Origin: an uncultured Acidobacteriota bacterium
GTDB taxonomy: Bacteria; Actinomycetota; Acidimicrobiia; Spongiisociales; ZC4RG35
Assembly (NCBI GenBank): GCA_963828465.1
Contig: CAWHEU010000022.1
Location: forward strand, 4,577-68,576
DNA: 64,000 bases
Direction of reading: 5' to 3'
The translations under genes were made by a program, and so were the position numbers. This document shows positions 3,005 through 39,201 of this stretch, in pieces. A model generated the notes under the pieces. It was not told the DNA's origin. It did not search any database and saw only the letters and a program-made list of their open reading frames with translations. The stretch's first letter is position 1; each line of letters starts with the position of its first letter.

Positions 3005-4035
3005 CCACGGTCGGCACCGATTTCCTCGACGAACTCGAGACGTACACCGAGATGGCTCGTCGCGCCGCCCTCTCGTATCTCCCGGAACGGAGAGAGACGG
3101 ATTACCTAGTCGACCCCGCTTTGGAGTATCTGGGGCGACCCGGGAAGGGACTTCGGCCGGCGTTGTGCCTGGCCACCTGCGAGGCCTTCGGAGGTGGGGT
3201 CGACGAAGCGATGCCGACGGCGGCCGCCCTCGAGCTCCTCCACACCGCCTTTCTGGTCCATGACGACGTCGAGGACGACAGTGAACTGCGCCGGGGCGAG
3301 CCCACCCTGCATCGCACCTACGGCCGTGCCCTCGCCATCAACGCCGGTGACGGACTCGCTGTTTTCGCACTCGGCGCTCTGAGGGAGAACGACCGAAAGC
3401 TGGGACGTCGTCTCGCCGCCCGGATCTGGTCCGAGTTCGACTTCATGGCACGTCAGACCGTAGAAGGACAAGCCATCGAGCTGGGATGGCAGCGTGATGC
3501 ACACCACGACCTGACCCCCGACGACTATCTCGACCTGATCATGAAGAAGACCTGCTGGTACACCACGGTGTTGCCGCTGAGGGTGGGGGCGCTGATCGGT
3601 AGCAAGAGGGCGGTGGAGCTCAGACCGATGCTGCGATTCGGGTTCTTCCTGGGCGCGGCCTTCCAGATCCGCGACGACATCCTCAACCTGACCGGGTCTC
3701 CCGAGCTGTATGGCAAGGAGCCCCTGGGAGATATCCGCGAGGGCAAGCGGACGTTGATTCTCCTTCATCTACTCGCCGCCACCACCCCTGCGGACCAGGA
3801 GCAGGTCGAGCGTTACCTTGCCATGGACCGGGTTGACCGATCCGACGCTGTGATCGCGGAGATCTTCACGATGATGCAGGACTACGGGAGTGTGGCGTTT
3901 GCCGAGGAGTTCGCCCGAGGTATCGCCCGATCAGCCGCGGTCGCATTCGACGAGGCCTTCGCCGATGTACCGGATTCGCCTGCCCGACGTTTCGTGCGCG
4001 ATCTCGTCCCTTATATGGTGGAGCGGGATCGATGA
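3001..4035 (+). CDS. polyprenyl diphosphate synthase (GGPP/FPP synthase family, trans-isoprenyl diphosphate synthase)
   Basis: First Asp-rich motif FLVHDDVEDDSELRRG and second motif FQIRDDILN. Length 344 aa. Confidence 0.9.
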   Translation: MTTVGTDFLDELETYTEMARRAALSYLPERRETDYLVDPALEYLGRPGKGLRPALCLATCEAFGGGVDEAMPTAAALELLHTAFLVHDDVEDDSELRRGEPTLHRTYGRALAINAGDGLAVFALGALRENDRKLGRRLAARIWSEFDFMARQTVEGQAIELGWQRDAHHDLTPDDYLDLIMKKTCWYTTVLPLRVGALIGSKRAVELRPMLRFGFFLGAAFQIRDDILNLTGSPELYGKEPLGDIREGKRTLILLHLLAATTPADQEQVERYLAMDRVDRSDAVIAEIFTMMQDYGSVAFAEEFARGIARSAAVAFDEAFADVPDSPARRFVRDLVPYMVERDR

Positions 4036-27395: not shown

Positions 27396-28344
27396 ATGGC
27401 CCATGTGACTTTCGTTCACGGAATCATGAATCAGCCTTCGCCCGCACGTCTGCTCAGGGAGTGGAAGCGGGACTTGGCCGACGGTGGGGACGGAGTGGAT
27501 CTCGATGTGTACGGCGTGACGTCATCGATGGTGTACTGGGCGGACGTCATGTATGCCGCCGCCACCGACGCCGGGGGCAGCCTCTCACGAGTCGATCGAG
27601 TACGAGGGCATCGAGTCGGGCGCCCTCACCGAGGTCGACGAGTCGTACATCGCCGAAGCGAGCGGGGACGAGAAGGACTTCATCGAGTCGATGATCGCCA
27701 ACTACGACCTCGACCATCCCGACGTGCCGGCAGCCGAGGCCGCTCCGGACGCGGGGGCAGAGGCCAGGGTGGCGGCGGCGTCGGCGTTGGAGGCAATACC
27801 TCTGCCGTGGTTCGTCAAGCGGCCGCTGATGCGGCTGCTGTTGCGTGACGTCCACCACTATCTCTTCAACACCAGTCATTCGCCTCGAACCGGGTCCAGC
27901 TACAAGGTCCGCGATGAGGTGAGGAAGCGGTTCGGCGCCGACCTCGGGGCCGTCGACGGTGGGCCCCATGTCGTAGTTGCGCACAGCCTCGGCTCGGTGA
28001 TCGCGTATGACTGTCTCAAACGGGTTGCCGGCACCAAGAAAGTGGACCTGCTGATCACGATCGGCACGCCGCTCGGCATGTCCGAGGTCCAGCACAACTT
28101 GAAGCCAGAGTGGTCGAAGGACGACGGCTACCCCGGAGAACTGCCGCGCTGGGTGAACGTGGTCGATCGTCTCGACCCGGTTTGTGTGGCCGACCCGATC
28201 ATCGCCAACGACTACATGCGGAAGAAGGCAGGCGTGGTGGTCGACGAGGTCGTGTCCAACGGCGGGGTGATGCGCCATCCGTCCGGCAAGTACTTCCGAC
28301 AGGCGGTCGTTCAGGATGCGGTGCGCAATGGATTGGGTGTCTGA
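27396..28344 (+). CDS. alpha/beta-hydrolase fold (lipase/esterase-like, GxSxG = AHSLGS); 1-nt frameshift in a G5 run near 27580
   Basis: N-terminus VTFVHGIMNQP, the nucleophile elbow VVVAHSLGSVIAYDCL and LLITIGTPLG are in two frames. These join at gccGGGGGcagc (27575-27586). RBS aaagggggac before the ATG. Confidence 0.7.
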
Positions 28345-28353
28345 GGGAGCCGG

Positions 28354-29919
28354 ATGTCGTTCTTCGACTCGCCACTTGGTGAGCAGCTCCGCTCCAGCCT
28401 CGATGCGGGGAAACCAGAGGACATCGCCGCCGCGGTAGGGGTGGTCAAGGGGAAGGTGTGGTCGGGGACAGTGCAGCCCGATCAGGTCGACGAGGTCCTC
28501 GCAGAACTGCAGCGACAACGACAGGTTCAGCACGTCATCGACATCGCCGATGCGGCCACCGCGGTCGGCTCGATCACGACGTCGGGCCGTCGCCGCTACT
28601 GCCAGATGCTGATCGAGTCGGGAGCCCTCCATGCCGGCGAGCTCGCCTGCGCAGAGCTTCTCGATCTGGCCGAGGATGCGAAGGAGCGGGGGGAGGCACT
28701 GGGGCTGCTCGGGCGGATCCGCAAGCAGCGTTACGTGACCAGCCGCCGGCCCGAGGATTTGATCGGCGCAATTGCCGCCTATCAGTTCGCATACGCGGGA
28801 GGCGGCGACCCGCTCTGGCATGGCATCAATCTCCTCGCACTCACCACCCGGGCCCATCGTGACGGAATCCTCGTTCCCCAACCGGTCGACACGGACGCTC
28901 TGACACGCACGCTCCTCGACGTAGTCAGGCAGACGGCACCCGAGTTGCAAGAGATCTGGGAGCGCACCACCGAGGTCGAGGCCCTGGTCGCCCTGGGCGA
29001 CAAGGCGTCGGTGGACGAAGCGGTGTCGGTGGCACAGAAACTCGCCAGCAGCAAGAGTGTCCGGCCGTTTGAGCTGGAGAGCCTTCGCCGTCAGCTGGCC
29101 GACATCTGGGAACTCGAGCCGCATCACCCGGTGCTGGTGGCCATCGCAGCGCAGAAGCTCCAACTCGGGGCCAGGGCCCATGTCGAGCTGCCCGATTCCG
29201 CGGGCCAGTTGGAGAAGATCTTCGGGACGGCCCTGCCTGTGGGGTACAAGCACCTGATGAGGGGTCTCGAGTGCGCAGAATCGGTGGGAAAGATCACCGA
29301 CGCATCCGAAGAGCCGTGGGGCACGGGATTCCTCCTACGCGGGAATCTGATCCATCCCGACTTCGGCGATGGACTGGTGCTGGCTACCAACGCCCACGTC
29401 TGTAGTCCAGAGCCCGGAGTGGGCAAGCTGCTGCCGAGCGAGGCGAAGGCTGTCTTCGACGTGACCAAGTCGGTCGATGGGGAGCAACTCGTCCTCACCG
29501 GCTTCGAGTGCCTGTGGAGCTCACCACCCTCGGTATGCGATGTCACCATCCTTCGCTTCACCGGACCCGAGCCGGCGCTCAAAGGCCAGCTCGACGTCGC
29601 CGCGTTGCCCCAGCCAGTGACGGAGGGCGCATATGTCTATGTCATCGGCCATCCGGCGGGGGGTGGGATCAAGTTTTCGATCAGGGGCAACGACCTTCTC
29701 GCCTATGACGCCGACATGTTCAAAGTCCACTACACCGCCCCCACCGAAGGGGGCAGCTCCGGGAGCCCGGTCTTCAACCAGGCATGGCAGCTGATGGCTG
29801 TTCATCACGCTGGAGATTCGAAGATGCACCGACTGGACGACCCTTCCGCTACGTATCAGGCCAACGAGGGGATCACGATCAAGGGGATCAGAGAGGAGTA
29901 CTCCAAGAATGGAAAATGA
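28354..29919 (+). CDS. N-terminal alpha-helical (TPR-like) domain fused to a C-terminal trypsin-like serine protease
   Basis: Catalytic triad context: LATNAHV (His), YDAD (Asp), GGSSGSPVF (Ser) in the C-terminal ~220 aa. The N-terminal ~300 aa is helical. No signal peptide. Confidence 0.8.
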   Translation: MSFFDSPLGEQLRSSLDAGKPEDIAAAVGVVKGKVWSGTVQPDQVDEVLAELQRQRQVQHVIDIADAATAVGSITTSGRRRYCQMLIESGALHAGELACAELLDLAEDAKERGEALGLLGRIRKQRYVTSRRPEDLIGAIAAYQFAYAGGGDPLWHGINLLALTTRAHRDGILVPQPVDTDALTRTLLDVVRQTAPELQEIWERTTEVEALVALGDKASVDEAVSVAQKLASSKSVRPFELESLRRQLADIWELEPHHPVLVAIAAQKLQLGARAHVELPDSAGQLEKIFGTALPVGYKHLMRGLECAESVGKITDASEEPWGTGFLLRGNLIHPDFGDGLVLATNAHVCSPEPGVGKLLPSEAKAVFDVTKSVDGEQLVLTGFECLWSSPPSVCDVTILRFTGPEPALKGQLDVAALPQPVTEGAYVYVIGHPAGGGIKFSIRGNDLLAYDADMFKVHYTAPTEGGSSGSPVFNQAWQLMAVHHAGDSKMHRLDDPSATYQANEGITIKGIREEYSKNGK

Positions 29920-30721
29920 CGCAATCCCTCCGGAGTTCCTGGAGCCCGAGGGCGACGCCGAGCGCCAGGATCCCGACCTCGTCTTCGAGACGACGTCAGC
30001 GACACTACGGGGGCTGTGGAATGACTGGATGTGCAAACGAGGTGACGGGACTTTCGTCGACGTCGAATTCTTCGGCCGCCGGATCGGCGGAGTGCCGACC
30101 CCGGCGGTCGACGCCTATCGGGCGCTCGAGGTAGCCCTGCGCTCCGCCGGTTACAAGCCAGATTCGCGGTGGGCGTACAACTGCAGGCTCATCGAGGGGA
30201 CGGACAAGCCCTCGCTGCACTCGGCCGGGATCGCAGTTGACATCGACCCGGACGAGAACCCGTTCTCGAAGGGTGACCCCTTCGCCGGGAAGATGGGTCC
30301 CGACCATGTCGCCGCGGCGCTGGCCATTCGCAACAGCGCCGGCGCCCGGGTGTGGTCCTGGGGCGGGCATTGGAACAAGCCCGATCGGATGCACTTCCAG
30401 CTCGACAGGGGGCCTGCGGCGGTGGATGTGGATTGGCGAACCGTCCCCGGTGGTGGCCCCGAAAGCGCCAGTTCGGGGTCAATGGACGTGAAGGAGGAAG
30501 AGATGGTTCTGTCCAAGAGCATGAAAGGCCCAGCAGTGGAGCGGTTCCAGCAGTGCCTGCTCGATTGGAATGCCAAGGCGCTGCCGAAGGACGGAGCCGA
30601 TGGTGTTTTTGGGAGCGAGACCGTCGAATGGGTGGGGCGGTTCCAGGAGGCCCTTGGTCTGGAGAAGACCGGAGTGATCGACGGGGTGACCGCGGCCTTG
30701 CTGGTCGCCCACGGGAAGTAA
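29909..30721 (+). CDS. M15 family (VanY/D-Ala-D-Ala carboxypeptidase-like) zinc peptidase with a C-terminal peptidoglycan-binding (PG_binding_1) domain; no signal peptide
   Basis: SLHSAGIAVDID (H…D zinc ligands) and GGHWNKPDRMHFQ (His). C-terminal GPAVERFQQCLLDWN…DGVFGSETVEWVGRFQEALGL matches the PG-binding fold. 11-nt overlap with the upstream stop. Confidence 0.8.
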   Translation: MENDAIPPEFLEPEGDAERQDPDLVFETTSATLRGLWNDWMCKRGDGTFVDVEFFGRRIGGVPTPAVDAYRALEVALRSAGYKPDSRWAYNCRLIEGTDKPSLHSAGIAVDIDPDENPFSKGDPFAGKMGPDHVAAALAIRNSAGARVWSWGGHWNKPDRMHFQLDRGPAAVDVDWRTVPGGGPESASSGSMDVKEEEMVLSKSMKGPAVERFQQCLLDWNAKALPKDGADGVFGSETVEWVGRFQEALGLEKTGVIDGVTAALLVAHGK

Positions 30722-30727
30722 CAAGCC

Positions 30728-32245
30728 ATCAAGGTCTTCCTGAGCTACCGGCGGGACGACACGGCGGGGCGCGCCGGAAGGCTCCACGACGCCCTGGCCT
30801 CGAGTTTCGGCACCCGCAACGTGTTCATGGACGTTTCCGCCATCGCGGTCGGCACCGACTTCGTCGACCAGGTGGAACGAGCGATCTCGACGAGCGACGC
30901 CTCGCTGGTGGTGATGGGGCCGAATTGGCTCGGGGCCACTGACCCCGAAGGCCGTCGGCGGCTCGACGATCCCCAGGACCACGTGAGGTCTGAGGTGCGC
31001 TCCGCGCTGGCCTCACCCAACCCGGTGGTTCCGGTGCTGGTCGGGGATGCATCGTTGCCGACCGAGGACCAACTGCCTGACGATCTGAAAGCCCTGGCGC
31101 GCCGACAAGCCGTGGAATTGCGGGACGAGACATGGTCTGAAGATGTCGAGATGCTGGTCCGGCGTCTCGAAGGCAAGGAGACGGTCCGGGAACCCCGCCG
31201 CTGGATTCTGCTGGCCATTGGCTTGATACTCCTGGGTGGCGTCGGCGCCGCTATCTGGATGGCTCAGGCAGGCGGCGAGGATGAGTTGACCCAATGCTCG
31301 GTGCCGGACGAGACATGGACCACGATCGACGTGGAACCCGGCGCCACGGACGTCGAACAATTGGAGCGGGATCGGGCACTCCGCTACACGGTGGTGAGTA
31401 CGGATTTCAGGGATGAACCCGGGGACGAGTGGTACGTCGTGCTCCATGTGAGGCTGGAGAACGAGTCCACGGACGTGGCGGGAAACGACGACCACACCGG
31501 GTACGGACCGTCGATCTTCGACGCCCTGCACGTCGATGAGATCTCGGTCGGGGGCCCTTACTGCTTTGGCGAGAACAGTGGTGACAGCGATCTCGCCCCG
31601 GGGGAGGCGGCCAACGCACGGGTTGGATTCCTCTCCGTACCTGGACCCCACCGAGGCAAGTCTGATGCTCGAGACCGATGGGCCCCTCTTTATCGAGATC
31701 ACCCCGGGCGCGTGATGCCGACGGTCCTGTTCTCGGGCCACATGGTCGATGCACCAGACCGGCCGTCTCCACGCTTCCCACCCGAGCGTGTTCCCCTGGT
31801 GCGGCGGGCGATCGCGGAAGCCGTCTGGCTCATCGATGACACCGACGCGGAGGCGATCTCGGGACTCGCCTGCGGGGGCGATCTCCTCTTCGCCGAGGAA
31901 TGGCTGAAGACCGGGCGGCCCTTGCACGCCTATCTGCCACGTGAAGAGGCGGATTTTCTCGACGAGTCGGTTCGTTTTGCCGGCTCGGAGTGGGTGGACT
32001 CGTTCCGTGAAGTGACCGCTGATCCGAACCTGGTCCTGATCGGTCCGGACCAAGAGATGCTTGGTTTGAACGAACCGCACACCGCGAACAACCTCCGCAT
32101 GCTCGAAGCTGCGTTGCTGCGGCCCGGCGCCCTCAACGGTCTGTTCCTTTGGGACGGCAAGGGAGGCGACGGTCCGGGAGGCACCGAGCACCTGGCCTCT
32201 GAGGTGGTCGAGCAGGGCGGGAGTGTCACCGTTCTCCGTCCGTAG
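30728..32245 (+). CDS. TIR domain – TM helix – C-terminal Rossmann-like (LOG/SLOG-like) domain protein; non-canonical start (ATC where ATG is expected)
   Basis: (I/M)KVFLSYRRDDTAGRAGRLHDALASSFGTRNVFMDVSAIAVGTDF…ASLVVMGPNWL is a canonical TIR. TM helix RRWILLAIGLILLGGVGAAIWMA. The C-terminus has ISGLACGGDLLFAEEWL … LFLWDGKGGDGPGGTEHL, reminiscent of LOG/SLOG Rossmann domains. The reading frame is open only from the TAA of the upstream gene (30719-30721). The first in-frame ATG (30830) lies inside the TIR domain. Confidence 0.65.
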   Translation: MKVFLSYRRDDTAGRAGRLHDALASSFGTRNVFMDVSAIAVGTDFVDQVERAISTSDASLVVMGPNWLGATDPEGRRRLDDPQDHVRSEVRSALASPNPVVPVLVGDASLPTEDQLPDDLKALARRQAVELRDETWSEDVEMLVRRLEGKETVREPRRWILLAIGLILLGGVGAAIWMAQAGGEDELTQCSVPDETWTTIDVEPGATDVEQLERDRALRYTVVSTDFRDEPGDEWYVVLHVRLENESTDVAGNDDHTGYGPSIFDALHVDEISVGGPYCFGENSGDSDLAPGEAANARVGFLSVPGPHRGKSDARDRWAPLYRDHPGRVMPTVLFSGHMVDAPDRPSPRFPPERVPLVRRAIAEAVWLIDDTDAEAISGLACGGDLLFAEEWLKTGRPLHAYLPREEADFLDESVRFAGSEWVDSFREVTADPNLVLIGPDQEMLGLNEPHTANNLRMLEAALLRPGALNGLFLWDGKGGDGPGGTEHLASEVVEQGGSVTVLRP

Positions 32246-33145: not shown

Positions 33146-36065
33146 CTAGGACCGGTCCTCGATGGCCTCCGGGGGCTCGATCCACTGCAATACCGTTCGG
33201 TAGTCGGCGGCGGCCCCTTCGGCGATCAGGCGGTCCCGCTCCGGTGGAAGGAGACCACCCTCGACCTCTTCACGGAATCGGGCCATTTCGTCCGGACTGG
33301 CCCCGACCCGGTTCCGCTCGACGCTGCCGAGAAACCGGGCGGCTGCAGACAGGTCACCTTCCGCCAGAGCAAGACGGAGGGCCTGTGCCGGGATCCCGGC
33401 CTGGACCTCTCGATCGAAGAGGAGGAGACGGTGGGCGGCCGATGTGAGCTCGACCCTGGCCGCCGCGAGACGTCCTTCATCGATGTGGCTGCGGATCGCA
33501 CGGGCGCCCGATCGGGCGGAGCAGGGCAGATCACCCACTTCGGCCAAGATCCCGGCTGCCTCGGCCAGATCGTCGGTTGAGGCCCCCAGTCCGAGATCCT
33601 GGGTCACCGCCCCGTGGTAGTAGAGGGCATGGCCCAACCCGTGACGGGATCCCAGATCACTCAGGATCTCGATGCTCTGGCGCAAGTTGGCCAGGACCCA
33701 CTCATCGTGACCGGATCCGATGTGGCTGGCCGAGGTCATCATCGATGCCGCGGCCAGATATCCGTCGCCGACCGTCAGCGCCTTCGAGATCGCGGCTTCG
33801 ACATGCTCCCGCCGCTGTTCCGGAGGACCGGCCTGCCCGAAGGCGAGCATGAACTCGATGATCGCCTGATCCCATTCCGGGTCCCACATCGGCGGGTGCC
33901 GGACATTCGCCAGAATCTGACGACCCTCCTCCATCCAGCCGCCCGCGTCCTGATGACCGACGAGGTTGGAATAGGCCATCCCGCGGGTCAGCGTGAGCCA
34001 CCCGACGAGCGCGTCGTCCCCGGCGCTCCGGGCACATTCGAGACCCAGATCTGCATAGTTCACCGCGGCCGGGTCGGTGAGGAAGGTCGCCAGCAGAGAA
34101 GCGGCCAGCCACGCCCTGGCGGCCATGGCGGGCGAGGCTTCGTCGCCATGTGATCGGAGCGCTCCCACCAACAGGTCCCGGCCTTCGACCTGGAGACTGG
34201 ATTGGGCCCAGAACCAGGTCAGATCGAATCCGATGTCGAGGAATCGGTCGATCTCCCCACGGCCGAGCAACGTGGACATGGCAACGCGGATGTTGTCGTT
34301 CTCCAAACAGGAGACTGCGGTTGGCCTGACGCTGGTCGGGACCGCGCAAGCTCGGGGCGATCTGCGCCACTGCGTTGGCGTAGTGAATGGCGTGGAGGAG
34401 CCGTACTTCGTCTTCCTCTCCTTCATCGGCCAGACGGGCCTGTCCGTATTGGCGGATCGGCTCGAGGAGTCGGAAGCGAGAAAAGCGAGCTTGCTGGATA
34501 GGCACCACGAGCGACTTGTCCACCAGCTGATCGAGCAAACCGAAGACATCGGTGGTGTCTCCGACGTTCTCAGCAGCAGGGAGATCGAACCCGCCGGCGA
34601 AGACCGAAAGACGTCGGAAAAGCGCCGACTCTTCCTCGCTGAGCAGGTCGTAGGACCAGCCGATCGTGTTCTCGAGGGTTCGCTGCCGGCGCACCGTCGT
34701 CTTCGAGGCTGCGGTGAGGACCCGGAACGACGTCTCGAGCTGGTCGGCGAGGTCGAGGAGGGTGAGAGTGCGGACCCGTGCCGCGGCCAGCTCGATGCCG
34801 AGAGGAATCCCGTCGAGACGACGGCAGATCCTGGCGATGGCTTCCAGGTCGGCGTGCGAAGGGGCGAGATCCGGCTTCATCCTGGCGGCCCGGTCGAGGA
34901 AGAGACGCACCGACTCCGATCGCGCCAGGTCCGATCCCTCTCCGGGCAGGCCAAGCGACGAGACCCGGAACACGATCTCGGCGGAGGTCCCGAGCGTCTC
35001 CCGTGATGTGGCCAGGATCGACAGGCCGGGGCTGGATCCGAGCATTTCTACCGCGATCGCCGCAGCCTCTTCGAGGAGGTGCTCACAGTTGTCCAGCAGC
35101 AATAGGAGCTTTCTTCGGGCTAGGTGAGCCTTGATCACCTGGATCAGGCCCATCCCGTCGCCGGCGCGCAGGCCCCAGACGTCGGCCACCTCATTCACGA
35201 CCAGGGCCGGATCTGCGATGTCGGCCAGCCCGGCCATCCAAACGCCATCAGGGAAGTCGTCTCCGAGGGCTCCGGCTACTTCCATGGCGAGACGGGTCTT
35301 GCCGGTCCCACCAACCCCGGTGAGGGTTACCAGCCTGTTGGACTGGAGCAGGGCCTTTACTTCCTCGAGGTCCTCGCGCCTCCCTACAAACGAGGTGAGT
35401 TGCGCCGGGAGATGAACCAGGTCGACCGGCTCGGTGCGCAGTGGCTCGGTTACCTCGGGCAGATCGGGATGGAGCAGCTCGAAGAGGCGCTCCGGGCGTT
35501 CCAGGTCCCTGAGAGGATGGACCCCTCGGTCCTGCAACTCCATGGGGGCTTCAACCAATTCTGCGGTCAGCTCAGCAGTGGCTCCCGACACCAGAATTTG
35601 CCCACCGTTCGCCGCTGCCATCACGCGGGCCGCCCTGTTCACATCGGGCCCGAAGTAATCGCCGGCCCGTTCGTACGAAGTGCCGGTATGGACCCCAATC
35701 CTGACGCGGATCGCCGGCCCTTCCCAAGCTTCGTCCAGAAGACCGAGCTGGGCCCGCATTGCGGCGCCAAGCGCGGCCAACGGCGTGGTGAAGGCGGCGG
35801 CAAAAGAATCCCCGGCGCTGGAGAAGACGTACCCATCGAGGTCAGCGATGGCGGATTCGAGAATGCGGTCGTGGGCGATCAGGCTCGCCGCCATGCCGTC
35901 ACGGTCCGCTTCCCAAAGACGGGTCGAACCGGCCACGTCGCTGAACAGGAACGAGACCGTGCCGGTGGGCCTGGAGTCCACCGTCGGAGGGTATCGGGGT
36001 CCCACGCGGGCCGCTAAGACGTCGGGTTCTACCGCGTCGGCAGGAACCAGTAGACGTAGCCGCAC
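33146..36065 (-). CDS. class III adenylate cyclase – NB-ARC/AAA ATPase – TPR STAND-family protein (paralog 1); frameshift near 34306-34328
   Basis: TGTVSFLFSDVAGSTRLWE…GDSFAAAF (cyclase). TLTGVGGTGKTRLA (P-loop). LLLLDNCEHL (Walker B). TPR-like C-terminus. The last ~390 aa are in another frame (33146..34549). Confidence 0.8.
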
Positions 36066-37616: not shown

Positions 37617-39201
37617 CTAGTTCTCGCGTCGGGTGGAGAGAGCTTTTTCCGTCAGGGCGAACACCTTGACCGGTCTCTGTACACCCTTCATCACCAGGTC
37701 TTCGACCGGAACCCCATCGACCCGGTCCTGTACCGCTGCCATGGTCCGCTCAGAGACCAGGACCTGACGCGGCTCGGCAGCCGTGGCAAGTCGAGCCGCC
37801 ACGTTCACGTGGTTTCCCACCACCGTGTAGTCGGTCCTCGTCGACGAACCGATGTTGCCCACCGTGACATATCCGGTGCTGATCCCGACGCCGACGGAGA
37901 GCTCCTCCTCAGAACGCATCCACGTGGCCCGCAGCTCCTCCACCTTGGCCAACATCTCGAATGCGGTAGCCACGGCCCGTTCGGCATGATCCTCGAACGG
38001 GATGGGATCACCGAAGAAAGCAAGCACTCCGTCCCCCAGGTACTTGTCCAGCGTGCCCCCGTTGGAGAAAACGATGTCGGTCATGGCGCTGAAGTACTCG
38101 TTCAGGGCATCGACGAGCTCCTCTGGCTCCATTCGCTCCGCGATCTGTGTGAAACCCCGGATGTCCGAGTAGAGGATCGTCAGATTGCGTCGGACCGAGG
38201 CGAAGGCCACCGGCTCGTCCCCGGCGAGTATCGCGTCCGCCACTTGCGGAGAGACGTATCGCCTCAGCTGCTCGGTCCGCTGCAGCTGGGTGACCTGTTC
38301 TTCGATGGTCTGCTCCAGATTGGCATTGAGCTGGCTCAATCCCTCGTACAAGGTGGAGAGCTGCCTGCTCGTCCGGTTCAGGTTGACCGTCAGCCTCCCG
38401 AACTCGTCACGGTTGGGGACTTCTACTTCCTGGCCGAAGTCGCCGTCGGCGATCCTTCCCAGTGCCAGATCGATCTTTCGCACCGGGCGCACCAGCGACC
38501 ACGACAGGATGGCTCCCATCGCCAGAGCGGTGAGCAGGCTGACCCCGGCGAACGCGGCAACAGTCACCGTGAGGAAGCGGCGATTCCCCCGGAAGTTCTC
38601 GAGCTCGGACGCAATGTCTTCCCTCCAGCGAGCCGATCATCAGGTTGAGATCGTCTTCCAGCTCATGTGAGATCTCGTGCTCGGCCGAGATGTGAACATC
38701 GGAGGCTCGGGTCATGTCGCCGGCCTCGTAGAAAGCCAAGACTTCTTCAGCTGCCTCGGCGTACCGGAGGTCGGTTGCGTCGATTCGGTCGACGATGGCG
38801 ACCAGCTCTTCGTCTGCCACATCTCTGATCGCCTGCATGTCGTTCGTGAAGTTCTCTTTGGCCTGGGCGATCTTGTCGTTCCACGAGTCGACCTGGGTGA
38901 TCAGGGCCATAGCCCGGTAATGGCTCTGCGCTGTCACTGCATAGATGCCCTGCTGGGCGAGCTCCAGCTGATCTTGGAGCTCGATCACCTGGTCCATCTG
39001 CCGGTTCATCGCGTTGATCACGACGATGCTGAAGACCCCCATGGCAAGAAGGAGCAGCGCACTCAACAGGAAGCCGGCGAGCAGCTTGGTGTGGATCGTC
39101 GCCGGCGCACGCGCCACCATGTCGATGAGCGGGCGCACCCAACGGACGGGGAGTGGATCTGGATTTGGTTCCGGCGCGCCCTGATTGACCGCGTCTGTCA
39201 T
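37617..39201 (-). CDS. membrane sensor adenylate/guanylate cyclase with a HAMP domain; frameshift near 38620-38635
   Basis: N-terminal TM, periplasmic helical sensor, second TM, HAMP (DGDFGQEVEVPNRDEFGRL), cyclase (ILYSDIRGFT…LDKYLGDGVLAFFG). The two halves are in different frames. Confidence 0.8.

What the first reader, a model, noticed from the sequence alone, without database searches (positions are those of the whole stretch)
30700..30760. M15 peptidase and TIR genes lie in the same frame separated by a single TAA; the TIR has ATC where ATG is expected
The M15/PG-binding gene ends …LVAHGK-TAA. The next codons, in the same frame, are CAA GCC ATC AAG GTC TTC CTG AGC TAC (Q A I K V F L S Y). 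This is the start of a canonical TIR (MKVFLSY… if ATC were ATG). A Shine-Dalgarno-like GGGAAG sits ~10 nt upstream of that ATC. The first in-frame ATG (30830) lies inside the TIR domain. Options are an ATC/non-canonical initiation codon, a base-call error (ATG→ATC), or stop-codon readthrough producing a peptidase–TIR fusion.
Basis: seen in the sequence. Interest (0 to 1): 0.5.

Follow-up and report, generated by a model that had tools for sequence, protein, structure and literature searches.

The report
Conserved ATC start codon, TIR gene
A membrane-anchored TIR (SARM1-like, probably NAD-cleaving) gene in a soil Acidimicrobiia operon most likely starts translation at the rare codon ATC, which is the same in every close relative examined, so it is a real inherited feature, not a sequencing error or a fusion with the upstream peptidase, and it probably keeps a toxic protein at very low levels.

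Summary
The M15/PG-binding gene ends at TAA 30719-30721. The same frame continues CAA GCC ATC(30728) AAG GTC TTC CTG AGC TAC, and the Pfam TIR_2 model begins two codons after the ATC.

I fetched 20 orthologous loci from independent MAGs and metagenomes. The codon before (K/R)VFLSY is ATC in 19 and ATT in one. A nested subclade uses TTG, and a distant outgroup uses ATG with a strong Shine-Dalgarno (SD) sequence.

The 33 codons between the ATC and the first ATG are under purifying selection: variable columns by codon position are 13/6/32 of 33. They hold 9 of the 21 invariant family residues and form strand βA and helix αA of a confident SARM1-like TIR model. Most loci have an in-frame stop 2-5 codons upstream and no ATG/GTG/TTG before codon 24-32.

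The stop-to-ATC spacer is 6, 8, 9, 10, 14, 15 or 16 nt, so the two genes are out of frame in 7 loci. That rules out a base-call error and conserved readthrough fusion.

Best reading: AUC (AUH) is the genuine, weak initiation codon, aided by a stop-overlapping SD and/or coupling to M15 termination. By analogy with Streptomyces infC (ATC) and sigR (GTC) it is probably IF3-sensitive. This is a new member of a known kind. Gene callers truncate this protein in 41 of the 120 best database clusters.

The parts
27396..28344 (+). First conserved operon gene: alpha/beta-hydrolase-like protein (323 aa in orthologs). In the window it is split over two frames near 27574-27581 (frameshift relative to orthologs).
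   Evidence: tblastn of ortholog proteins from L020 and L025 hits two frames of the window; weak Pfam Abhydrolase_6 hits; same gene order in L020, L022, L025, L027.
28354..29919 (+). TPR-S + trypsin-like protease gene. It overlaps the M15 start by 11 nt.
   Evidence: Pfam TPR-S 2.1e-12 and Trypsin_2 2.9e-15; conserved upstream of M15/TIR in orthologous loci.
29909..30721 (+). M15 peptidase + peptidoglycan-binding domain gene, stop TAA 30719-30721.
   Evidence: Pfam Peptidase_M15_4 1.5e-11 and PG_binding_1 2.3e-09; sequence.
30713..30718 (+). Weak Shine-Dalgarno-like GGGAAG, 9 nt before the ATC.
   Evidence: Duplex with the anti-SD is -5.1 kcal/mol in the window. Other orthologs have GGAG/GGGG/GAGG overlapping the stop codon, or a GGA-rich stretch just after it, 5-9 nt upstream (-6 to -10 kcal/mol).
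30722..30727 (+). 6-nt intergenic spacer CAAGCC. Its length varies among orthologs (6, 8, 9, 10, 14, 15, 16 nt) and it is non-coding.
   Evidence: Alignment A1 and spacer table.
30728..30730 (+). ATC: inferred translation initiation codon of the TIR gene.
   Evidence: ATC in 19 and ATT in 1 of 20 orthologous loci; TTG in a nested subclade; ATG in the outgroup. No canonical start between the upstream in-frame stop and codon 24-32 in 14 of 20 loci.
30728..30826 (+). First 33 codons of the TIR domain (strand bA, residues 3-7; helix aA, residues 9-27). They are lost in all database gene calls that start at Met34.
   Evidence: Variable columns by codon position 13/6/32 of 33; pairwise codon differences 1717 synonymous vs 684 non-synonymous. 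Invariant F4 S6 Y7 R8 G17 R18 D21 F33 (and D35 just after). AlphaFold pLDDT 95-97 for residues 1-30. The truncated protein P0002 hits TIR_2 only from model position 30 at 27.8 bits, below the cut-off.
30821..30829 (+). GTG (30821) and ATG (30827): the first canonical start codons, internal to the TIR domain and used by gene callers.
   Evidence: the ORF listing. 41 of the 120 best homolog clusters begin 'MDV...'. The GTG is GTA or GTT in 3 orthologs.
30728..31190 (+). SARM1-like TIR domain (about residues 1-154) with invariant Glu89.
   Evidence: Pfam TIR_2. AlphaFold2 model with mean pLDDT 88.5. Foldseek best hits are human SARM1 TIR domains: E 6e-10, TM 0.85-0.88 normalised to the target, 24% identity. 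E89 is invariant in a 44-sequence family alignment.
31202..31264 (+). Predicted single transmembrane helix (WILLAIGLILLGGVGAAIWMA), followed by a cysteine-containing domain on the other side of the membrane (presumed extracytoplasmic).
   Evidence: Hydrophobic stretch read from the translation; it is conserved in orthologs. Inference only: no topology predictor was run.
31635..31641 (+). One extra base, unique to the window, within CCGTACC. It shifts the frame 26-27 codons before the normal stop and fuses the ORF in frame to the next gene.
   Evidence: Gap in all 14 orthologs at this point. Deleting any one base of 31635-31641 restores a 328-aa protein ending ...LDPTEASLMLETDGPLFIEITPGA, as in orthologs.
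31713..31715 (+). TGA: the normal stop of the TIR gene (in the frame restored after the insertion). It overlaps the ATG of the next gene (TGATG).
31715..32245 (+). Downstream conserved 176-aa gene of unknown family, with a canonical ATG/GTG start in all orthologs that carry it.
   Evidence: No Pfam, PADLOC or PDB sequence hit.

Best explanation
The TIR gene begins at ATC 30728. AUC, a near-cognate of AUG read by initiator tRNA, serves as its start codon and has been maintained by selection across a clade of Acidimicrobiia operons (hydrolase; TPR-S/trypsin protease; M15 peptidase; TIR-TM protein; 176-aa protein).

Ribosomes reach the AUC in one or both of two ways: de novo, through a Shine-Dalgarno motif that overlaps or directly follows the M15 stop codon, or by re-initiation after terminating at the M15 stop 6-16 nt upstream. 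AUC initiates at about 1-2% of AUG in E. coli and is the class of codon that IF3 discriminates against. The expected effect is therefore very low, IF3-sensitive synthesis of a SARM1-like, membrane-anchored TIR protein that would be toxic in excess.

Shown here: conservation of AT(C/T); a coding pattern of substitution starting immediately after it; non-coding, variable-length sequence before it; absence of canonical starts; and the structural need for the first 33 codons.

Inferred: that fMet-tRNA initiates there, that expression is low and IF3-sensitive, and that this serves to limit toxicity or set stoichiometry.
For: 1. ATC in the window plus 18 orthologous loci and ATT in one, from independent assemblies (GenBank MAGs, JGI, ENA, Logan) sharing 52-85% protein identity.
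2. Neighbouring codons vary synonymously. Over the first 33 codons, variable columns by codon position are 13/6/32 of 33.
3. The spacer has non-triplet indels (6, 8, 9, 10, 14, 15, 16 nt) and both TAA and TAG stops.
4. 14 of 20 loci have no ATG/GTG/TTG between the upstream in-frame stop (2-14 codons before the ATC) and codon 24-32.
5. F4, S6, Y7, R8, G17, R18, D21, F33 and D35 are invariant in the family. Strand bA (residues 3-7) and helix aA (9-27) are modelled at pLDDT 95-97. Truncated gene calls drop TIR_2 from 54.9 to 27.8 bits.
6. Start codons at the same position are TTG with a strong SD in a subclade nested inside the ATC group, and ATG with SD GGAGGGAG in the outgroup. This position is therefore the start in relatives.
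7. ATG was never seen in the ATC clade, although third positions vary in 32 of 33 adjacent codons.
8. Precedents: AUC gives 1-2% of AUG, and an N-terminal Met was confirmed by mass spectrometry in E. coli (bioRxiv 10.1101/063800). infC uses ATC in Streptomyces, and the sigR GTC start is repressed by IF3 (PMC5472188).
Against: There is no experimental evidence (N-terminus, ribosome profiling) for any member.

The SD in the window's own subclade is weak (-5.1 and -3.1 kcal/mol, 9-nt spacing), so de novo initiation at AUC there would be very inefficient.

In five of the out-of-frame loci (L004, L010, L024, L025, L028) the TIR frame is open further upstream and holds a GTG or TTG 20-59 codons (128 or more in L028) before the ATC. 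A longer N-terminus cannot be excluded for those loci individually.

ATC is also simply the preferred Ile codon in a 65% GC genome, so codon identity alone is weak evidence. The argument rests on position and context.

The window's own copy carries a frameshift near its 3' end, so this particular copy may be defective or mis-assembled.
Confidence: 0.8

Rival explanations
1. Strict termination-reinitiation. The AUC is used only by ribosomes that have just terminated at the M15 stop codon, so TIR synthesis is obligatorily coupled to M15 translation and there is no independent initiation.
For: Wherever M15 or its 3' remnant is present, its stop lies only 6-16 nt before the ATC. The subclade with the shortest spacer (6 nt, including the window) has the weakest SD. 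In three M15-loss loci (L022/L023, L025, L026) the last 12-30 M15 codons and their stop are retained next to the TIR start. Re-initiation near a stop is documented in E. coli (PMC2268962; PMC10666635).
Against: Most loci carry a recognisable SD at 5-9 nt (-6 to -10 kcal/mol). In L025 and L026 M15 is only a short remnant with no evident strong start of its own, yet the ATC is kept. This is a sub-variant of the best explanation (same start codon), not an exclusive alternative.
Confidence: 0.3
2. Stop-codon readthrough of TAA produces an M15 peptidase-TIR fusion protein, and the ATC is an ordinary internal Ile codon.
For: In the window and 12 other loci the two ORFs are in the same frame, separated by one stop.
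Against: They are out of frame in 7 loci: spacers of 8, 10, 14 and 16 nt in L004, L010, L011, L024, L025, L026 and L028. The spacer 'codons' are not conserved (QA / GSS / ESS / GPS / RRKAA). The stop is TAA or TAG with no conserved readthrough context and no conserved RNA structure (consensus energy -1.1 kcal/mol). M15 is deleted in some loci that keep the TIR gene. Relatives start at TTG or ATG at this exact position.
Confidence: 0.02
3. Sequencing or assembly error: the true base at 30730 is G (ATG).
For: The window has at least three frameshifts relative to orthologs within 7 kb, so its sequence quality, or the integrity of this locus, is questionable.
Against: The same ATC is found in 18 other loci from different projects and assemblers, and the closest relatives (L005, L012) share the identical junction TAACAAGCCATC. 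The suspect errors in the window are indels, not substitutions.
Confidence: 0.01
4. The gene really starts at GTG 30821 or ATG 30827, as gene callers assume, and the upstream 33 codons are an untranslated relic (an N-terminally truncated or decaying TIR).
For: 41 of the 120 best database clusters are annotated this way, including NCBI entries. The window copy also has a 3' frameshift.
Against: The 33 codons evolve as coding sequence (13/6/32 variable columns by codon position). They hold 8 of the family's 21 invariant residues (9 counting D35). They form the central bA strand and the aA helix. Without them the TIR_2 match falls below Pfam's threshold. GTG 30821 is not conserved, and Met34 is Gln in more distant relatives.
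Confidence: 0.04

Closest known systems
infC (IF3) non-canonical start: AUU in E. coli, ATC in Streptomyces
   Same: A near-cognate AUH codon is conserved across orthologs as the start. Gene finders routinely mis-annotate it. It occurs in Actinobacteria and belongs to the codon class that IF3 discriminates against (PMC5472188).
   Different: infC is autoregulatory: its product is the discriminator. Here the gene encodes a TIR-TM protein with no link to translation. IF3 sensitivity was not tested.
Streptomyces sigR GTC start codon (IF3-repressed; sets SigR:RsrA stoichiometry)
   Same: An actinobacterial operon gene with a conserved non-canonical start that keeps one partner low relative to a co-transcribed partner and is mis-annotated in all genomes (PMC5472188).
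   Different: The codon differs (GTC vs ATC) and the protein is a sigma factor, not an immune-type effector. sigR was verified experimentally; this case was not.
Enterococcus faecalis ebpA ATT start; E. coli pcnB AUU
   Same: A rare AUH start attenuates expression of a protein that is harmful or needed in small amounts. For ebpA, the annotated start was a downstream ATG (PMC4447247, abstract listed; pcnB).
   Different: These are single-species examples in unrelated gene families. Here the codon is conserved across a clade with saturated synonymous sites.
SARM1-type TIR NADase domains / bacterial ThsB-like TIR proteins
   Same: Pfam TIR_2 match. The best structural matches are human SARM1 TIR domains (TM 0.85-0.88, 24% identity). 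A Glu is invariant at position 89. There are weak PADLOC ThsB hits (5e-08).
   Different: The architecture is TIR + one TM helix + a small cysteine-containing C-terminal domain. No ThsA-type partner (SIR2/SLOG/Macro) was detected. The operon partners are a TPR-S/trypsin protease and an M15 peptidase. NADase activity was not tested.
Protease + TIR conflict systems (e.g. type IV Thoeris TIR-caspase; Aravind-lab trypsin/caspase-TIR systems)
   Same: A TIR gene lies next to a trypsin-like protease, or in the outgroup L029 a CHAT/caspase-like protease, each carrying a TPR-S domain. This recalls TIR-signal-activated proteases (bioRxiv 10.1101/2024.10.24.620036; PMC7159879).
   Different: No sequence-level membership was shown: PADLOC finds no known system. 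The TIR here is membrane-anchored, and an M15 cell-wall peptidase is inserted between protease and TIR.

Membership tests
Genes with a conserved non-canonical AUH start codon (infC-type) | No canonical start (ATG/GTG/TTG) available between the upstream in-frame stop and the conserved coding region | tested here: met
   The window has 2 open codons upstream, and the first canonical codon is GTG at codon 32. The same holds in 14 of 20 loci.
Genes with a conserved non-canonical AUH start codon (infC-type) | A near-cognate codon is conserved at the coding/non-coding boundary across orthologs, and relatives use a canonical start at the same position | tested here: met
   19 ATC and 1 ATT; TTG in a nested subclade; ATG in the outgroup. 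The coding substitution pattern begins right after it and the indel-rich spacer lies right before it.
Genes with a conserved non-canonical AUH start codon (infC-type) | Ribosome-binding site at functional spacing | tested here: inconclusive
   GGAG/GGGG/GAGG/GAAGGA lies 5-9 nt upstream in most loci (-6 to -10 kcal/mol), but only GGGAAG or GGCAAG at 9 nt (-5.1 and -3.1) in the window's subclade.
Genes with a conserved non-canonical AUH start codon (infC-type) | fMet initiation at that codon, and repression by IF3 | not testable with these tools
   Needs N-terminal proteomics, Ribo-RET, start-codon swaps and IF3 over-expression or infC* fidelity mutants.
Programmed stop-codon readthrough fusion | Downstream ORF conserved in the same frame as the upstream ORF | tested here: not met
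   Out of frame in 7 of 20 loci (spacers 8, 10, 14, 16 nt).
Programmed stop-codon readthrough fusion | Conserved stop identity/context or a stimulatory RNA structure, and a linker conserved as protein | tested here: not met
   Both TAA and TAG are used. The spacer sequence and length vary. RNAalifold consensus energy is -1.1 kcal/mol with no covariation.
Translational coupling by termination-reinitiation | Very short distance or overlap between the upstream stop and the downstream start | tested here: met
   6-16 nt in all loci that retain the M15 3' end.
Translational coupling by termination-reinitiation | Downstream translation depends on upstream translation | not testable with these tools
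   Indirect only: the ATC is retained where M15 is reduced to a 12-30-codon remnant (L025, L026), which argues against strict dependence on full-length M15.
TIR domain (Pfam TIR_2; SARM1-like NADase) | Profile match above the curated threshold over the whole domain | tested here: met
   TIR_2 at 54.9 bits against a cut-off of 28, model positions 1-121.
TIR domain (Pfam TIR_2; SARM1-like NADase) | Flavodoxin-like TIR fold | tested here: met
   AlphaFold2 mean pLDDT 88.5. Foldseek against SARM1 TIR: E 6e-10, TM 0.85-0.88.
TIR domain (Pfam TIR_2; SARM1-like NADase) | Catalytic glutamate equivalent to SARM1 E642, and NAD+ cleavage | tested here: inconclusive
   E89 is invariant in 44 family members, but residue-level superposition on E642 was not obtained and activity cannot be tested here.
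Thoeris defence system | ThsB-type TIR together with a ThsA-type effector (SIR2/SLOG, Macro, or caspase-like) | tested here: not met
   Only weak ThsB hits for the TIR (5e-08). None of the neighbours matches any PADLOC system protein apart from weak, marginal RT-Protease hits on the trypsin domain (E 3e-4). The downstream 176-aa protein has no Pfam or PDB sequence match.

The most novel reading that the evidence does not exclude
The AUC start is a regulatory switch, not just a throttle. AUH starts are held down by IF3 fidelity checking. Anything that lowers IF3 activity or perturbs initiation (phage takeover of translation, ribosome damage, stress) would then selectively raise synthesis of the membrane TIR NADase. 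On this reading the operon reads out the state of the host's translation-initiation machinery: an infC-like circuit co-opted by an immune or cell-suicide module. The retention of the M15 3' end and its stop next to the TIR start, even where M15 itself is lost, would be part of this control element.
Probability: 0.12. Interest if true: 0.75.

Novelty: new member of a known kind. Interest (0 to 1): 0.45.

Why it matters
Conserved non-AUG/GUG/UUG starts in bacteria are documented for only a handful of genes (infC, pcnB, sigR, ebpA). Here is a case supported by comparative evidence across a whole clade, in an immune-type TIR effector gene.

It has a practical consequence. Prodigal-type and NCBI annotations truncate this protein by 33 residues, removing the core bA strand and aA helix. 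Forty-one of the 120 best database clusters are affected. Domain searches, structure predictions and any cloning based on the annotated ORF would therefore give a dead protein.

It also gives a concrete, testable example of expression control of a potentially toxic TIR protein through start-codon choice. The series ATG -> TTG -> ATC/ATT across the family suggests start-codon strength has been tuned.

Tried and rejected
- An exact-sequence look-up of the window's M15 protein found nothing on record, so the source genome could not be identified.
- RNAalifold on the junction of 19 loci gave no conserved structure (-1.1 kcal/mol, no covariation). I found no evidence for a readthrough or frameshift stimulator, or for a start-occluding hairpin.
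- PADLOC gave no known defence system, only weak ThsB-like and RT-protease hits.
- Pfam (E up to 5) and a PDB sequence search for the downstream 176-aa protein gave nothing usable. My initial guess that it is SLOG-like is unsupported and was dropped.
- A GC-pattern survey of the window for other genes lacking canonical starts flagged the TIR ORF most strongly; a shorter, similar stretch at 37617..38636 (-) was not followed up. Non-canonical starts do not look like a general property of this stretch of genome.
- A literature search found no report linking TIR or defence genes to non-canonical starts.
- The Leu5 codon was considered as the start: TTG in L006 and L014, which explains database entries beginning MSYRRDD or LSYRRDD. 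It was rejected because it is CTG/CTC/CTT elsewhere.
- L025 was considered as proof of coupling-independent ATC use. It is weakened by an in-frame TTG 20 codons upstream in that locus.
Full report
**1. The observation**

The window sequence shows a 270-aa gene at 29909..30721. It has Pfam Peptidase_M15_4 (1.5e-11) and PG_binding_1 (2.3e-09) domains and ends ...LVAHGK-TAA (30719-30721). The same frame continues CAA GCC ATC(30728-30730) AAG GTC TTC CTG AGC TAC. Pfam TIR_2 aligns from model position 1 at the Val two codons after the ATC (54.9 bits, cut-off 28).

The first canonical start codons in that frame are GTG 30821 and ATG 30827. GGGAAG lies at 30713-30718. The description is therefore correct.

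A GC-by-codon-position survey of all long ORFs in the window flags the TIR ORF most strongly. It has a 33-codon stretch before the first canonical start with a coding signature (GC3 0.91). One shorter stretch at 37617..38636 (-), 23 codons with GC3 0.83, looks similar and was not followed up.

**2. Relatives**

A protein search gave 743 homologs. Of the 120 best clusters, 41 begin 'MDV(S/T/A)AI...', at the internal Met34. These include entries from NCBI, JGI, ENA and Logan. More distant relatives begin M(R/K)(V/I)F(L/I)SYRRDD.

This suggested that gene callers everywhere fail to find a start at the true N-terminus, so I fetched DNA:
- 5 GTDB MAG loci;
- 9 orthologous metagenome loci;
- 10 more loci around chosen homologs.

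**3. The junction in orthologs**

The codon preceding (K/R)(V/I)F(L/V)(S/C)Y is:
- ATC in the window and 18 other loci;
- ATT in L028;
- TTG, with SD GAGGAGAGG, in L020/L021 and L022/L023;
- ATG, with SD GGAGGGAG, in the outgroup L029, where a CHAT + TPR-S protease replaces trypsin and M15.

A neighbour-joining tree places the TTG subclade inside the ATC/ATT group. AUH therefore looks ancestral for the trypsin-M15-TIR operon type.

The distance from the M15 stop (TAA or TAG) to the ATC is:
- 6 nt (window, L005, L008, L009, L012);
- 9 nt (L001, L002, L003, L006, L007, L013, L014);
- 15 nt (L027);
- 8 nt (L004, L010, L024);
- 10 nt (L011, L026);
- 14 nt (L028);
- 16 nt (L025).

Seven loci are thus out of frame, and the spacer sequence is not conserved. 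In L022/L023, L025 and L026, M15 is deleted down to a remnant of its last 12-30 codons, yet the TIR gene is kept.

**4. Is the stretch after the ATC translated?**

Over the first 33 codons, 19 distinct sequences show variable columns of 13, 6 and 32 (of 33) at codon positions 1, 2 and 3. Pairwise codon differences are 1717 synonymous against 684 non-synonymous.

In a 44-member family alignment, F4, S6, Y7, R8, G17, R18, D21, F33 and D35 are invariant. That is 9 of the 21 invariant columns.

An AlphaFold2 model (mean pLDDT 88.5, pTM 0.81) puts strand bA at residues 3-7 and helix aA at residues 9-27, with pLDDT 95-97. Its best PDB matches are human SARM1 TIR domains: E 6e-10, TM 0.85-0.88 normalised to the target, 24% identity.

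A protein starting at Met34 (P0002) matches TIR_2 only from model position 30, at 27.8 bits, below the gathering score. The 33 codons are therefore expressed and structurally indispensable.

**5. Where can translation start?**

In 14 of 20 loci there is an in-frame stop 2-14 codons before the ATC and no ATG/GTG/TTG until codon 24-32. The Leu5 codon is TTG only in L006 and L014. That explains database entries beginning MSYRRDD and LSYRRDD, but the codon is CTG/CTC/CTT elsewhere.

The only near-cognate codon conserved between the non-coding spacer and strand bA is AT(C/T). Relatives use TTG or ATG at exactly that position. Most loci have a Shine-Dalgarno motif (GGAG, GGGG, GAGG, GAAGGA) 5-9 nt upstream, often overlapping the M15 stop (-6 to -10 kcal/mol). 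The window's subclade has only GGGAAG or GGCAAG at 9 nt (-5.1 and -3.1 kcal/mol). No conserved RNA structure spans the junction.

**6. Verdict on the three options**

- Base-call error: excluded by conservation of the ATC across independent assemblies.
- Readthrough fusion: excluded as the conserved mechanism, by the out-of-frame loci, the unconserved spacer and the loss of M15 in some loci.
- Non-canonical initiation at AUC: by far the best-supported reading (confidence about 0.8).

Whether ribosomes arrive de novo through the SD or by re-initiation after M15 termination cannot be decided from sequence. The very short stop-start distances, the weak SD in the 6-nt group and the retained M15 3' remnants favour a contribution from coupling. 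The SDs, and retention of the ATC next to mere remnants of M15, favour some independence.

**7. Mechanism and meaning (inference)**

In E. coli, AUC initiates at about 1-2% of AUG with Met at the N-terminus (bioRxiv 10.1101/063800). IF3 destabilises initiation complexes on non-canonical codons. infC itself uses ATT in E. coli and ATC in Streptomyces, and Streptomyces sigR uses GTC under IF3 repression to set SigR:RsrA stoichiometry (PMC5472188). Re-initiation is also IF3-sensitive (PMC2268962).

By analogy, the AUC start should hold the TIR-TM protein at a small fraction of the upstream gene products. That is plausible for a SARM1-like TIR with an invariant Glu89, which could deplete NAD+ if over-produced.

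Within the ATC clade ATG never appears, although a single C->G change would create it and third positions vary in 32 of 33 neighbouring codons. This argues for selection against a strong start.

A more speculative reading is that IF3 dependence makes TIR synthesis responsive to perturbation of translation initiation (probability about 0.12).

**8. Comparison with known systems**

The phenomenon belongs to the known, small class of conserved non-canonical bacterial start codons (infC, pcnB, sigR, ebpA). It is a new member in a new gene family, not a new mechanism.

The operon (alpha/beta-hydrolase-like protein; TPR-S + trypsin protease; M15 + PG-binding peptidase; TIR-TM protein; 176-aa unknown protein) resembles protease/TIR conflict systems (PMC7159879; type IV Thoeris preprint). 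It matches no PADLOC system, and I do not file it under Thoeris.

**9. Caveats**

There is no experimental datum for any member. In five of the out-of-frame loci, distant upstream in-frame GTG or TTG codons exist.

The window's own TIR copy has one extra base within 31635-31641 relative to all 14 aligned orthologs. This shifts the frame 26-27 codons before the normal stop (TGA 31713-31715) and fuses the ORF to the next gene. Deleting one base restores a 328-aa ortholog-like protein.

Two more frameshifts relative to expectation lie nearby: the hydrolase gene at about 27575, and a large minus-strand gene at about 34400-34450. Either the assembly has indel errors or this locus is decaying in this genome. 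Neither affects the conclusion about the ATC.

Noticed in passing
window 31635-31641: The window has one extra base (context CTCTCCGTACCTGG) compared with all 14 aligned orthologs. It frameshifts the TIR gene 26-27 codons before its normal stop and fuses it in frame to the downstream gene (ORF 30821..32245 in the ORF listing). Deleting one base restores ...GFLS(D/V/Y)LDPTEASLMLETDGPLFIEITPGA*. This is either an assembly indel or a real inactivating/fusing mutation.
   Followed up: yes
window 27396-28344 (junction ~27574-27581): The first operon gene (alpha/beta-hydrolase-like, 323 aa in orthologs) is split between two reading frames in the window. Ortholog proteins align to frame 3 and then frame 1.
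   Followed up: yes
window 33146-36065 (-), switch ~34400-34450: Two long overlapping minus-strand ORFs (787 aa and 467 aa) look like one large cyclase/ATPase/TPR-type regulator broken by a frameshift. The codon-position GC pattern changes phase at about 34400-34450. This is the third frameshift within about 7 kb.
   Followed up: partly
L022/L023 ~3800-3900; L025 3846-3901; L026 ~2650-2769: In loci that have lost the M15 peptidase gene, its last 12-30 codons and stop codon are still present directly upstream of the TIR start. This may hint that the segment (SD and/or a short coupling ORF) is needed for TIR translation.
   Followed up: partly
window 31715-32245 and orthologs (e.g. L020 5062-5571): A conserved 169-176-aa protein follows the TIR gene, with motifs GLACGGDLLFAEEWL and WDGxGGDGPGGT. 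It has no Pfam, PADLOC or PDB sequence match. Its start overlaps the TIR stop (TGATG or GTGA). Function unknown.
   Followed up: partly
L024 3075-4091 (-); L028 2612-3640 (-): In two of the more divergent loci the gene after the TIR-TM gene is a convergent FHA + TIR protein (Pfam Yop-YscD_cpl/FHA/TIR), a second TIR gene in the neighbourhood.
   Followed up: no
L029 1-3960: In the ATG-start outgroup the gene upstream of the TIR-TM homolog is a 1353-aa CHAT (caspase-like) + TPR-S protein instead of TPR-S/trypsin + M15. It is followed by a 932-aa protein with a faint TIR hit. The protease partner is therefore exchangeable.
   Followed up: no
L010 ~146-155: The spacer AGGATGAC contains an ATG 5 nt before the ATC, but out of frame with the TIR ORF. 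It would open a short overlapping ORF and might compete with the ATC.
   Followed up: no
database proteins P0002-P0032, P0036-P0061: Annotation is systematically wrong. 41 of the 120 best homolog clusters, including NCBI entries P0024, P0049 and P0061, start at internal Met34 and lack the first 33 residues of the TIR domain. P0003 and P0040 also carry spurious C-terminal extensions.
   Followed up: yes
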